Of a stretch of DNA of 20,000 nt, positions 4,525 through 8,318 are shown piece after piece (the first letter of the stretch is position 1; every line of letters starts with the position of its first letter). Under the pieces are notes generated by a model. It saw nothing but the letters and a program-made list of their open reading frames with translations. It did no database searches and was not told where the DNA came from. The stretch lies in NCBI GenBank assembly GCA_035650735.1, contig DASRGZ010000115.1, forward strand, positions 55,187-75,186, read 5' to 3'. Source of the DNA: Chthonomonadaceae bacterium. GTDB lineage: Bacteria > Armatimonadota > Chthonomonadetes > Chthonomonadales > Chthonomonadaceae. A program made the translations under genes and the position numbers.

Positions 4525-5454
4525 ATGCAGACGACGACGGAGAACGTCCAACAACGCTTTGCCGAGGCGCTCGAATCGTTTGTGGCGCGGGTCAAGCAAG
4601 ACCCCTATGTGATCGCGGCCCTGCTCTTCGGCAGCCTGGCCTACGATCAGGTCTGGGAGAAGTCGGATATTGATATCATCCTCGTCGGCAAGGACGAGCG
4701 CAAGCCGGAGCGCTCCTACGCCCTGGTCGAGAACGGCATCAATATCCATATCATTATGCTCTCCCGCAGCAAGTTCAAGCAGGCCCTGGAAGGCTCCCTG
4801 CAAAGCTCCTTCTTCCACTCCTCCTTCTCCAAAAGCACCTTACTTTTTTCCAGAGACGAGTCCCTCCGAGAGTATTACGACAACGTGAAGCGCGTTGGAG
4901 CGCGCGACAGGGAGATGCAACTGCTGCGTACCAGCGGCGGCACGATCTACTCCCTGGCGAAGGCGGAGAAGTGGTTCTATGTCAAGCGCGACCTGGAGTA
5001 CAGCTTCCTCTGGATTCTCTACACGGTGGACAGCCTGGCAAAGATCGAAGTACTGCTCCACAGCGAAGTGACCGGGCGCGAGGTCATTCAGCAGGCGCTC
5101 CAGATCAATCCCGACCTCTTCCATGCGCTCTATACCGACCTTATACACGGGCCGAAGACCGCGCAGGCCATTCAGGAGGCCCTGGATCGCATCAACGGCT
5201 ACCTGGACGAGAAGGCGATGCTCCTGTTCCGGCCCATCCTGGACTATCTGGCCGAGTCGGGCGGCGCTCGCTCTGCCACCGAGATTGACGAGTACTTCAA
5301 GAAGAGGGCGCAAACCGAAACGCTGTCTTTTGTGTGTGAGTGGCTGGCGGACAAGGACATTATCCGCAAGGTGTCCGCTCCGCTCTTCCTGACCGAAAAG
5401 AGCCGTGTCGCCGTCGAAGAGGCGGCCTACTACTATGATGGAGGCGAGAGATAA
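4525..5454 (+). CDS. Pol-beta-superfamily nucleotidyltransferase domain protein (YgxA-like: NTase, helical domain, C-terminal winged helix)
   Basis: Signature [19 protein letters not shown] (hGS...DhD); helical middle region; C-terminal wHTH-like segment ([21 protein letters not shown]...[11 protein letters not shown]). AAGGAG RBS before ATG 4525. Stop overlaps the uvrA start (TAATG). Confidence 0.85.
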
Positions 5455-8318
5455 TGAGACAGACGATTGGTGTCAAGGGCGCACGTGAAAACAATCTCAA
5501 GAACCTGGATGTCGAAATTCCCCGCGATCAACTGGTCGTCGTCACGGGTCTGAGCGGTTCCGGGAAGTCCTCCCTGGCCTTTGAGACCATCTACGCCGAG
5601 GGACAGCGGCGCTTCCTGGAGTCCCTGTCCGCCTTTGCCAAGCGCTTTGTCTCCCAACTCAAGAAGCCCGCCGTAGATTTCGTCTATGGCCTCTCTCCCG
5701 TCATCTCCATCGAGCAGAAGACCGTCAGCAAGAACCCGCGCTCCACCGTCGGCACGATGACCGACATCTACGACTACATGCGGATGCTCTACGCGACCAT
5801 CGGGGTCGCGCACTGTCCCTATTGCCGCCGCGAAGTGCCCATCAAGACGGCGGAGCAGATGACCGAGCATCTTCTCTCGCTGCCGGAGGGCACGGCGGTC
5901 GAGATCTGCGCGCCCGTGTTCAAAATCTACGGCGAGGACTACGCCTACCTCTTCGCCGAGATACGCAACAAGGGATATCGCCGTATGCGCGTTGATGAGG
6001 ATCTAATAGACATCAGCGAGGACGTGGACCTCGATGAGACGCGCACCTATAAGATGGAGGCCGTCATTGACAAGTTCATCATCAAGCGCGAGTTCCATAA
6101 GCAACTGCGCGTCTCCATCGAGCACGGGCTGCGCGTCGGTGAGGGCTTCCTGCGCTTCCGTATCCTGACCCCGGAGAAGGCAGGCCGCCGTCTGGAGACC
6201 TTTTACAAGGACTTCGCCTGCCCGGAACATCACCTGACGATGGGGGAATTGCAAGCCTACTACTTCAGCTTCAACGAGTCCGACAGCGCGTGTGTGACCT
6301 GTATGGGCCTGGGCACCTACCTGAAAGTCCACCCTGATTTGATCGTGCCGGACAAGACGCGAAGCATTCTGGGCGGCGCGTTCATTCCCGAAGCGTTCCG
6401 GTACGACAAAGACACCTGGAACGGCAGGATCATGTATAGCCTGGCGCAGCACTACGGCTTTCGCCTGGATGTGCCCTTCCAGGACCTCTCCCCTGAAGCC
6501 GTGGACATCCTCCTCTACGGCACGAAGGGCGAGCGCTTTACCCTGTTGCTGCCGGAGGGCGCGACCAAAGGCGACCCGCACGTGGGCAAACCCTTCCGGT
6601 TCGACGGCATCATCAACAACATCGAGCGCCGATATCGCCACTATCGCAAGCAGCAGGTCGCCCACACCTGGATGGAAGAGTATCTGAAGAAGGTCATGGT
6701 CGAGCATACCTGCCCGGACTGCCAGGGGACCAAGCTCAAGCCGCAGCGCCTGCTGGTCACGCTCAACGGCAGGACCATCCACGAGCTGGGCGATCTGCCG
6801 CTCACCGACCTACGGGAGTTTCTGGGCAGCCTGCCGCCTGCCGCGCGCCAGCACGAGGCCGGGGAGTCGGTCAAGCAGGAGATACTGGGTCGGCTGGATC
6901 TGCTGCTGGGCATCGGCATGGACTATATCAGCCTGAACCGCAAGGCGGCGACGCTGGCGGGCGGCGAGTCGCAGCGCGTTCGCCTCTCTACGCAGATCGG
7001 CTCCGGCCTGATGGGGATGCTCTACGTCCTGGACGAGCCGAGCATCGGCCTGCACCCGCGCGACAATTTCAAGATGATCAACACCCTTAAGCGCCTGCGC
7101 GACATCGGCAACACGGTGATCGTCGTCGAGCACGACGAGGAGACGATCCGCGCCGCCGACCATATCCTGGAGATCGGCCCCGGCCCCGGCGTGCACGGCG
7201 GGCAGGTGGTGGCGCAGGGAACGCCGGAGGAGATCCTACAGAACCCGGCCTCACTGACCGGCCTGTACCTGAGCGGCGCGGCGCAGATCGAGACTCCGGC
7301 CCGGCGCAGAAAGCCGAAGGGCAAGGCGCTGATCGTGCGCGGGGCGCGCGAGAACAACCTGAAGAACATAGATGTGGAGTTCCCGCTCGGCGTCTTCCTC
7401 TGCATCACCGGCGTCTCCGGCTCCGGCAAAAGCACGCTGGTGAATGAGATTTTGTTCAAGAAGCTCTACTCGCTCTTCCACGACAGCCGGGTGCTCTCCG
7501 GCGCGCACGACGGCATCGAGGGCGTGGAGCATATCAGCGATGTCCTGGATATTGATCAGTCGCCCATCGGACGGATGCCGACCTCCAACCCGGCGACCTA
7601 CACGGGCATCTACGACCATATTCGCAAGCTCTTTGCGGAGACGGCGGAGGCGAAGAAGCGCGGCTACACGGCATCCCGGTTCAGCTTCAATATCAAGGGT
7701 GGGCGCTGCGAGGAGTGCGGCGGGCAGGGCGTAGTGACGACCCAGCTTCATTTCATGCCCGATGTGGAGGTGGTCTGCGAGGTCTGCAAGGGCGCGCGCT
7801 ACAACCAGGACACGCTGGAGGTGTTCTATCGCGGCAAGAACATTGCCGATGTGCTCGATATGTCCATCGAGGAGGCGGTCTGCTTCTTCGCCGACAAGCC
7901 CCTCATCGCGCACAAGCTTGGAGTTCTCAATCAGCTTGGCCTGGGCTACTTGAAGATAGGCCAGTCCGCAACGACCATCTCCGGCGGCGAGGCGCAACGG
8001 GTGAAGTTGGCGCACGAGCTGGGCAAGATCAAGCGGGGCGGGCGCAACTTCTACATTCTCGACGAGCCGACGACCGGACTCCATCTGGCCGACATTCAAC
8101 GCCTGCTGGACAGCCTGAACCGCCTGGTGGACGCGGGCAACACGGTCCTGGTCATCGAGCACCACCTGGACGTTATCAAGACGGCGGACTGGATCATAGA
8201 CCTGGGGCCGGAGGGCGGCAACGGCGGCGGGCGCGTTATCGCGCAGGGGACGCCGGAGGAGATCGCACAGTGTCCCGATTCTTATACCGGCCAGTTCTTG
8301 AAGACGAAGCTCCACTAA
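5454..8318 (+). CDS. uvrA: Excinuclease ABC subunit A (UvrA), full length but divergent
   Basis: GARENNLKN twice; Walker [10 protein letters not shown] and GVSGSGKST; Walker [12 protein letters not shown] and [11 protein letters not shown]; zinc-binding CxxC pairs; DLGPEGG..GG C-terminus; 954 aa with UvrB-binding and insertion regions. Confidence 0.96.

What the first reader, a model, noticed from the sequence alone, without database searches (positions are those of the whole stretch)
4525..8318. Nucleotidyltransferase translationally coupled to a divergent UvrA: candidate undescribed two-gene system
Seen: the NTase stop and uvrA start overlap (TAATG at 5452-5456) with a GGAGG RBS inside the NTase gene, and uvrB/uvrC are absent from the window. 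The NTase has the GS...DxD motif and a probable C-terminal winged helix. Established: canonical nucleotide excision repair has no Pol-beta NTase partner, UvrA paralogues such as DrrC protect against DNA-binding drugs, and Pol-beta NTases can modify antibiotics, nucleic acids or proteins. Inference: the pair could be a lesion or drug sensor (UvrA) coupled to a nucleotidylating or DNA-binding partner, acting in alternative repair, drug resistance or defence.
Basis: partly seen in the sequence, partly recalled or inferred. Interest (0 to 1): 0.75.

Follow-up and report, generated by a model that had tools for sequence, protein, structure and literature searches.

The report
UvrA paralogue with dedicated nucleotidyltransferase partner
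Bacteria of several phyla carry an extra copy of the DNA-damage scanner UvrA almost always paired with an uncharacterised nucleotide-transferring enzyme, and the pair likely protects DNA without the usual UvrB partner, which would be an undescribed kind of DNA-surveillance module.

Summary
Observation confirmed. The NTase (4525-5454) and uvrA (5454-8318) overlap at TAATG. The genome holds a second, canonical uvrA plus uvrB and uvrC elsewhere. The pairing is conserved: uvrA follows the NTase in 50 of 53 genome loci and 30 of 30 Paenibacillaceae loci. The NTase precedes this UvrA type in 68 of 79 metagenome loci. In the own phylum each gene is in 27 of 301 genomes, both in 26. These UvrAs form one clade apart from canonical and class II UvrA. 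They keep both ATPase sites but have a remodelled UvrB-binding domain. The NTase has the YgxA/ANT(4') fold plus a winged helix, keeps GS..DxD and likely works as a dimer with shared active sites, but lacks ANT(4')'s acidic bases. Best reading (0.4, inferred): a UvrB-independent DNA-surveillance module whose NTase is the effector. Substrate and contact are untested. The scan noted this pair before in an Asgard archaeon (e1-6876972). Not found in ten literature searches; one key classification paper was unavailable.

The parts
4525..5454 (+). Nucleotidyltransferase, 309 aa: Pol-beta NTase domain (about res 1-120, GS-x6-W-x2-S-DxD), HEPN-like four-helix bundle (126-234, K146/K149/W150), C-terminal winged helix (236-305)
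4510..4514 (+). AGGAG ribosome-binding site, 10 nt before the NTase ATG
   Evidence: sequence
5440..5456 (+). GGAGG ribosome-binding site inside the NTase 3' end, and the TAATG stop/start overlap
   Evidence: sequence; spacing in relatives
5454..8318 (+). UvrA paralogue, 954 aa, full length with two intact ABC ATPase sites; member of an NTase-linked clade
5847..6158 (+). Remodelled UvrB-binding (interaction) domain, res 132-235: canonical RGRKGE is KIYGED here, and the E/D219 position is non-acidic
8458..8874 (+). VOC/glyoxalase-family gene downstream, followed by a terminator-like stem at 8915-8946; possibly co-transcribed here but not a conserved part of the module
   Evidence: no homologue of it in 132 related loci

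Best explanation
The two genes form a conserved module in which an extra UvrA, kept beside the canonical one, likely scans DNA for distortions without UvrB and is predicted to hand the site to its paired nucleotidyltransferase, which would transfer a nucleotide to an acceptor there. Shown: the pairing and co-inheritance; a separate UvrA clade with intact ATPase and zinc motifs; loss of residues invariant in the canonical UvrB-binding domain and gain of new invariant ones; an NTase with an intact metal/NTP motif. Inferred: the NTase is a homodimer with active sites shared between subunits; UvrB is not recruited; the remodelled domain docks the NTase; the winged helices hold DNA. Also inferred: the acceptor is neutral or anionic (a DNA end or phosphate, or a DNA-bound drug) rather than an aminoglycoside, because the conserved pocket residues are basic (R81, K146, K149, R185) and both acidic bases of ANT(4') are absent.
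For: Pairing: 50 of 53 genome loci; 30 of 30 strong Paenibacillaceae hits; 3 of 4 in the phylum of G302; 68 of 79 metagenome loci found from the UvrA side. Own phylum: 27 of 301 genomes have the NTase, 27 of 301 the clade UvrA, 26 both, including three (G087, G199, G012) where the genes are not neighbours. Gene trees agree: r = 0.81 over 81 dereplicated pairs, 24 of 32 strong NTase splits shared, 2 in conflict. Clade: 28 of 28 rows on one branch, SH-aLRT 100, stem 0.61. A canonical or double UvrA is also present in 8 of 9 named carriers and 5 of 5 own-phylum carriers. UvrB-binding domain, E. coli numbering, 12 canonical against 28 clade rows: R176 12/12 vs 7/28; R178 12/12 vs 10/28; R216 12/12 vs Q in 22/28; position 219 acidic 11/12 vs 0/28; net charge -2 to +6 vs -3 to -13. 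Window residues E161 and R171 are invariant in 154 of 154 clade segments. That this domain contacts UvrB domain 2 is in PMC7616783 (passages); that R176, R206 and E219 are contact residues is recalled, not sourced. Walker A, Walker B and H-loop columns are 28/28. NTase: D48 88/96, D50 86/96, K149 93/96. In 128 tandem doubles the N half keeps DxD (125/128) but loses K146 and W150, while the C half loses GS/DxD but keeps K146 (127/128) and W150 (125/128). This is the pattern of a site built across subunits, as in the ANT(4') homodimer (PMC6361787, passages). A tandem double folds at pTM 0.91 across a low-confidence linker. No uvrB or uvrC family recurs beside the pair.
Against: No activity, substrate or phenotype was measured. 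Loss of UvrB contact is read from conservation and recalled residue numbers; R206 is kept as R or K in 28 of 28 rows and D205 in 28 of 28, and UvrA has a second UvrB contact in signature domain II that I did not examine. The third Pol-beta carboxylate is H or N (H42, N29 of 96), so polymerase-type chemistry is doubtful. Each gene sometimes occurs without the other nearby: clade UvrA after an ECF sigma and a VOC gene in G372 and G360, in G061, and in 5 metagenome loci with room upstream; NTase without UvrA in L010 and L011. No SOS control was seen: no lexA match in G000 and GAAC-N4-GTTC in only 4 of 164 upstream regions. Neighbouring genes share trees without touching, and many loci are close kin. 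The tandem doubles are related to each other (named ones are Poribacteria). The UvrA tree is the quick search, midpoint-rooted, with long-branch warnings among class II rows.
Confidence: 0.4

Rival explanations
1. Two-step drug defence without physical contact: the UvrA strips DNA-binding antibiotics off DNA as DrrC and Ecm16 do, and the NTase separately adenylylates the freed drug; they are linked only by co-regulation.
For: The closest characterised folds are the antibiotic-modifying ANT(4')-Ia (Z 15.3), LinB (12.4) and ANT(4')-IIb (12.2). A divergent AraC regulator with a GyrI-like/Cass2 small-molecule domain flanks 20 of 25 Bacillota genome loci and 9 of 30 Paenibacillaceae loci. Ecm16 confers echinomycin resistance without UvrB, C or D (PMC9328131, passages). 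No SOS box.
Against: Both ANT(4') bases (E76, E145; PMC6361787) align to H75 and A145 (a weak alignment, probability 5%), and neither column is consistently acidic in the family. The winged helix and the new invariant residues on UvrA's interaction domain are left unexplained. No match in plasmid or phage collections. The AraC/GyrI gene is confined to one subclade (0 of 79 metagenome loci).
Confidence: 0.2
2. The NTase is a regulator: it AMPylates the UvrA paralogue, or senses a nucleotide and controls the operon through its winged helix, while UvrA acts alone.
For: [quoted passage not shown] The NTase is fused behind an ECF sigma in 36 of 119 top homologues and behind an AraC HTH in L034 and P0144. 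Clade UvrA without NTase follows an ECF sigma in G372 and G360.
Against: Bacillota loci already have their own regulator and still keep the NTase. The two closest ECF sigmas in G000 are fused to unrelated C-terminal sequences, so the fusion is not specific. Sigma-fused copies keep the catalytic motifs in 36 of 36. No shared operator emerged upstream.
Confidence: 0.17
3. Anti-phage or conflict module: UvrA senses foreign or damaged DNA and switches on the NTase to make a nucleotide signal or to poison the cell.
For: Patchy distribution (27 of 301, 30 of 201, 4 of 251) and host lineages mixed in the gene tree. Fold likeness to Hailong HalB (Z 9.1; NCBIfam 19.7 bits against a cut-off of 190).
Against: No effector or other defence gene recurs beside the pair. 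The PADLOC mad3/mad8 hits are stronger for canonical and E. coli UvrA (350 and 342 bits) than for the window's (311). Two NTase relatives had no PADLOC match at 1e-5. None found in viral contigs, phages or plasmids.
Confidence: 0.1
4. Back-up nucleotide excision repair: the paralogue still loads UvrB for lesions the canonical UvrA misses, and the NTase is an accessory such as an end-processing enzyme.
For: Full-length UvrA passing TIGR00630 and NF001503, with the interaction domain, D205 and R/K206 kept. uvrB and uvrC are present in G000. A PolB gene follows the pair in 9 related loci and a UvrD-like helicase cluster recurs in 4.
Against: R176, R178, R216 and E/D219 are released and the domain has turned acidic. 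The pair never sits with uvrB or uvrC in the loci examined. The PolB neighbours are one group of near relatives.
Confidence: 0.1

Closest known systems
Class I UvrA of UvrABC excision repair (TIGR00630, NF001503; PDB 9gxk, 2r6f, 3zqj)
   Same: Full-length architecture, both ATPase sites, zinc sites, interaction and DNA-binding domains; 48-51% identity to canonical copies.
   Different: Separate clade, extra to a canonical copy, remodelled UvrB-binding domain, altered C-terminal zinc-finger hairpin (Y760 to E in 28/28, L756 to M in 28/28), never beside uvrB/uvrC, paired with an NTase.
Class IIa UvrA: Ecm16, DrrC, Deinococcus UvrA2 (PDB 7sh1, 2vf7)
   Same: An additional UvrA beside the canonical one; precedent for UvrB-independent protection against DNA-binding drugs (PMC9328131, passages).
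   Different: Class IIa lacks the UvrB-binding domain and first zinc finger; this clade keeps the domain and its C256/H259 ligands. It falls outside the class II rows in the tree and has a dedicated partner gene.
YgxA-like proteins (PDB 3C18; PF14540, PF22339, PF18576)
   Same: The same three-domain fold over the whole length: Z 21.4, rmsd 4.6, 279 aligned; profile hit E 1.7e-7.
   Different: 15% identity. A true YgxA orthologue sits elsewhere in the same Paenibacillus genomes, is not beside uvrA within the fetched flanks, and lacks GS and DxD. The window protein matches none of the three YgxA Pfam models at E 0.01.
Kanamycin nucleotidyltransferase ANT(4')-Ia and LinB
   Same: NTase domain plus four-helix bundle (Z 15.3, rmsd 3.8, 239 aligned); GS, DxD/E and K149-W150 align; shared-site dimer inferred.
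   Different: Catalytic bases E76 and E145 are not conserved, a winged helix is added, the gene is chromosomal, and it is tied to a UvrA.
MNT-HEPN type VII toxin-antitoxin pairs and Hailong HalB
   Same: Pol-beta NTase with a HEPN-like helical module.
   Different: One fused chain, scores far below the cut-offs (23.2 vs 60; 19.7 vs 190 bits), and no toxin or effector gene recurs nearby.

Membership tests
Class I UvrA (NER) | Full-length UvrA over curated cut-offs with two ABC ATPase sites | tested here: met
Class I UvrA (NER) | Groups with housekeeping UvrA | tested here: not met
   separate branch, SH-aLRT 100; the canonical copy L001 groups with E. coli UvrA (quick tree)
Class I UvrA (NER) | Conserved UvrB-contact surface on the interaction domain | tested here: not met
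   R176, R178, R216 and E/D219 released; D205 and R/K206 kept; contact residue numbers recalled
Class I UvrA (NER) | Loads UvrB and supports UvrC incision | not testable with these tools
   needs biochemistry
Class IIa UvrA (DrrC/Ecm16) | Lacks the UvrB-binding domain and first zinc finger | tested here: not met
   PF17760 at res 132-235; C256 and H259 in 28/28; definition from PMC9328131
Class IIa UvrA (DrrC/Ecm16) | Protects against DNA-binding drugs without UvrB | not testable with these tools
   needs a growth assay
Pol-beta nucleotidyltransferase superfamily | Fold with hG[GS] and DxD motif | tested here: met
Pol-beta nucleotidyltransferase superfamily | Third carboxylate on the following strand | tested here: not met
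   position 75 is H42/N29 of 96 rows; assignment by sequence alignment, not by coordinates
ANT(4')/kanamycin nucleotidyltransferase | NTase plus four-helix bundle, homodimer with sites between subunits | tested here: met
   fold; dimer inferred
ANT(4')/kanamycin nucleotidyltransferase | Acidic catalytic bases E145 and E76 | tested here: not met
   A145 and H75 in the window (weak alignment); column 145 is E in 18 and D in 11 of 96
YgxA family | NTase-like + helical + winged-helix architecture | tested here: met
YgxA family | Matches PF14540, PF22339 or PF18576 over cut-off | tested here: not met
   relatives reach PF22339 only weakly, at most 27.5 bits against a cut-off of 27
MNT-HEPN type VII TA / Hailong / CBASS-type defence | Curated model over cut-off and a cognate toxin or effector gene in the operon | tested here: not met
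MNT-HEPN type VII TA / Hailong / CBASS-type defence | Protects against phage | not testable with these tools
   needs a plating assay

The most novel reading that the evidence does not exclude
A UvrA clade has swapped UvrB for a nucleotidyltransferase: it finds lesions or drug-bound sites and loads an NTase dimer that nucleotidylates or edits the DNA itself, a UvrBC-independent repair or DNA-marking pathway spread across many phyla and hidden under the annotation 'uvrA'.
Probability: 0.2. Interest if true: 0.9.

Novelty: categorically new. Interest (0 to 1): 0.72.

Why it matters
The full-length UvrA scanner is known to work through UvrB; the known UvrB-independent forms have lost the docking domain and act alone. 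Here the domain is kept but rebuilt, and the gene travels with one enzyme across Armatimonadota, Chloroflexota, Poribacteria, Latescibacterota/Gemmatimonadota and Bacillota. That points to a second output for damage sensing. It offers a natural experiment on what the docking domain specifies and gives the YgxA-like fold its first functional lead. It also shows that annotation hides the clade, since it passes the UvrA cut-offs. Cultured Paenibacillus and Clostridium carriers make it testable. Both parts belong to known superfamilies; the novelty is the pair, and it rests on not finding it in the papers I could search.

Tried and rejected
Complex prediction (two NTase chains with UvrA residues 126-420): no verdict, scores 0.18 and 0.00 against a mark of 0.32; not used either way. 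Sequencing runs: no RNA holder listed, so expression is unchecked. Names and taxa of ten divergent relatives could not be looked up, so the archaeal range is unchecked. A single-sequence PDB search with the NTase found nothing; the profile and fold searches did. My first reading of a second NTase upstream in Bacillota loci was wrong: it is a divergent AraC/GyrI regulator pulled into the cluster through the AraC-NTase fusion. SOS regulation was not supported. A third conserved gene was not found in 54 or in 138 loci. The VOC gene is not conserved, and MerR-like hits occur in only 4 of 132 loci. Mobile-element carriage was not found: plasmids and phages no match, viral contigs 0 of 112 pattern hits confirmed. 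PADLOC mad3/mad8 hits were rejected as generic to UvrA. The ECF fusion was rejected as specific evidence for a sensor role. A strict YGED pattern matched only 47 of 79 metagenome loci; the column counts are the better measure. Recent transfer into this genome is not indicated: GC3 0.81 and 0.85 against 0.86 for canonical uvrA. Literature: ten searches listed no paper on this pair by title or abstract start. Krishnan et al. 2020 (classification of ABC ATPases), the UvrA-UvrB domain structure paper and the Mfd-UvrA paper were not held. PMC7835731 and PMC7083905 gave no passage on the contact residues. No supplements were read.
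Full report
Observation. The NTase gene runs 4525-5454 (309 aa) and uvrA 5454-8318 (954 aa), overlapping at TAATG with GGAGG 9 nt upstream. The genome (6.5 Mb, 63% GC, 97.6% complete) has a second uvrA on C120, 50.8% identical and with canonical motifs, one uvrB on C92 and one uvrC on C59. The nearest named relatives are Chthonomonadaceae and other Armatimonadota.

Conservation from the NTase side. The family is large: 1248 proteins of 169-541 aa, 532 longer ones, and 250 clusters at 50% identity with E up to 1e-30. 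Of 53 genome loci, 50 have a uvrA downstream on the same strand; the misses are L010, L011 and L057, the last at a contig end. Record titles name Armatimonadota, Chloroflexota, Poribacteria, Latescibacterota/Gemmatimonadota and Bacillota; many are close kin. In the own phylum 27 of 301 genomes carry it. Of the 26 besides G000, 21 have uvrA within 2 kb, 3 have none within the 9-10 kb fetched, 1 ends at a contig edge and 1 is an eroded remnant. In Paenibacillaceae 30 of 201 genomes have a strong hit and all 30 are followed by uvrA; in the phylum of G302 it is 4 of 251, with 3 followed by uvrA.

Conservation from the UvrA side. A profile of residues 126-420 from 45 NTase-linked UvrAs separates the clade by a score gap: at least 257 against at most 212 bits in the own phylum, at least 290 against at most 215 in Paenibacillaceae. 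Membership here rests on that gap, not on a tree. It marks 27 of 301 own-phylum genomes, 26 of them NTase carriers, including the three where the genes are apart; the exception, G061, is 80% complete. It marks 32 of 201 Paenibacillaceae: the 30 carriers plus G372 and G360, where an ECF sigma and a VOC gene precede uvrA instead. In metagenomes the best 80 of 549 confirmed stretches were kept and one identical to the window was dropped. Of 79, 68 have the NTase upstream, 1 has a divergent double NTase, 5 have no room upstream and 5 have room but no NTase. The two gene trees agree (r = 0.81, 81 pairs; 24 of 32 strong splits shared, 2 in conflict), which neighbours would show even without contact.

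The UvrA. A tree of 50 rows (the window plus 27 of the 50 NTase-linked proteins, 15 others including the own canonical copy and E. coli UvrA, and 7 short class II-type proteins) puts all 28 linked rows on one branch with SH-aLRT 100 (quick search, midpoint root). A canonical or double-length UvrA is also present in 8 of 9 named carriers (G310 showed only the clade copy) and in 5 of 5 own-phylum carriers. Walker A, Walker B, H-loop and zinc-ligand columns are conserved, with Zn1 C256 (E. coli) replaced by His. The interaction domain is kept but rebuilt. In E. coli numbering R176, R178 and R216 are invariant in 12 canonical rows and kept in 7, 10 and at most 2 of 28 clade rows. Position 219 is acidic in 11 of 12 against 0 of 28, and the net charge falls to -3 to -13. 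Window residues E161 and R171 are invariant in 154 of 154 clade segments. D205 and R/K206 remain in the 28 rows, though 206 is T or S in 28 of 154 segments. This domain binds UvrB domain 2 (PMC7616783, passages); that R176, R206 and E219 are the key contacts is my recollection. The C-terminal zinc-finger hairpin also differs (Y760 to E, L756 to M, 28 of 28). Class IIa proteins such as Ecm16 and DrrC lack the interaction domain altogether (PMC9328131, passages), so this clade is not class IIa.

The NTase. The model (pLDDT 91.9) matches YgxA-like 3C18 over its whole length (Z 21.4, rmsd 4.6, 279 aligned), then ANT(4')-Ia (15.3), LinB (12.4), ANT(4')-IIb (12.2) and HalB (9.1); the middle part matches HEPN bundles and the end matches winged helices. 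A YgxA orthologue from the same genomes lacks GS and DxD. This family keeps them: G36 91, S37 91, D48 88, D50 86, K146 86, K149 93 of 96 diverse rows. In a weak alignment to ANT(4')-Ia (probability 5%) DxD/E and K149-W150 line up, but E76 and E145, the two catalytic bases (PMC6361787, passages), fall on H75 and A145. In 128 tandem doubles the N half keeps GS/DxD and loses K146 and W150, and the C half does the reverse. One such double folds at pTM 0.91 across a low-confidence linker. I infer a homodimer with active sites built from both subunits, under selection for nucleotide binding, with a basic rather than acidic acceptor pocket.

Regulation and context. No third gene recurs across lineages. 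A divergent AraC regulator with a GyrI-like domain flanks 20 of 25 Bacillota genome loci, 9 of 30 Paenibacillaceae loci and 0 of 79 metagenome loci. The NTase is fused behind an ECF sigma in 36 of 119 top homologues, all with intact motifs, and behind an AraC HTH in two cases; similar sigmas in G000 carry unrelated extensions. No lexA match was found in G000 and the Gram-positive SOS box occurs in 4 of 164 upstream regions. The NTase was not found in plasmids, phages or viral contigs.

Mechanism. The reading that accounts for most of this is a UvrB-independent surveillance module: the ATP-driven UvrA dimer finds distorted or drug-bound DNA, and the NTase dimer, docked on the rebuilt domain and holding DNA by its winged helices, nucleotidylates something there (0.4). 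Pairing, clade and motifs are shown; docking, substrate and phenotype are inferred. Rivals are contact-free two-step drug defence (0.2), a regulatory NTase (0.17), anti-phage signalling (0.1) and back-up excision repair (0.1).

Novelty. Each part belongs to a known superfamily, but the pair fails a defining feature of every system considered. Ten searches listed no paper on it; PMC3710099 (passages) covers MNT-HEPN fusions but not this pair. The ABC-ATPase classification most likely to mention it was not held. It is an unchecked AI note that I saw after forming my reading; I confirmed the bacterial recurrence but not the archaeal one. Verdict: a real, widespread, apparently undescribed two-gene module; interest 0.72.

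Noticed in passing
window about 983, 4288-4330 and 8915-8946; also G000:C101 near 3558: A repeated stem (GCCAGGG...CCCTGGC) followed by a T-rich tail; the copies at 983 and 4288 continue with TGTTATCAT, which reads like an extended -10 site about 200 nt before the NTase. The loose pattern occurs 11 times in the genome against 7 and 1 in shuffles, so only the close copies matter.
   Followed up: partly
G000:C133 near 5796 and G000:C96 near 149431: Two ECF sigma factors of about 520 aa with long C-terminal extensions; the C133 extension looks by eye like the start of an F1 ATPase beta subunit (not scanned).
   Followed up: no
L279:1701-2932 and L280:6483-7660: In two Paenibacillaceae genomes the clade UvrA is preceded by a VOC gene and an ECF sigma instead of the NTase, a natural NTase-less variant.
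   Followed up: partly
L092, L093, L112, L113: Poribacteria and Latescibacterota-type carriers have a double-length UvrA (open frames of 1848-2251 aa) as their housekeeping-type copy.
   Followed up: partly
L285 (G049:C8): Eroded remnant of the module: NTase residues of about 31-155 followed by only the C-terminal part of uvrA.
   Followed up: partly
L065, L076, L078, L079, L089: Small genes inserted after the NTase, including an AAA_21-type ATPase (L065) and small gene pairs with a P-loop protein, suggesting the junction is an insertion site.
   Followed up: no
G000 whole genome: No match to the LexA family model TIGR00498 in a genome rated 97.6% complete, although recA is present.
   Followed up: no
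window 1111-1995 and 9147-9923: A protein with three HTH_17 (excisionase-like) repeats, and a MerR-type regulator with an unassigned C-terminal half.
   Followed up: no
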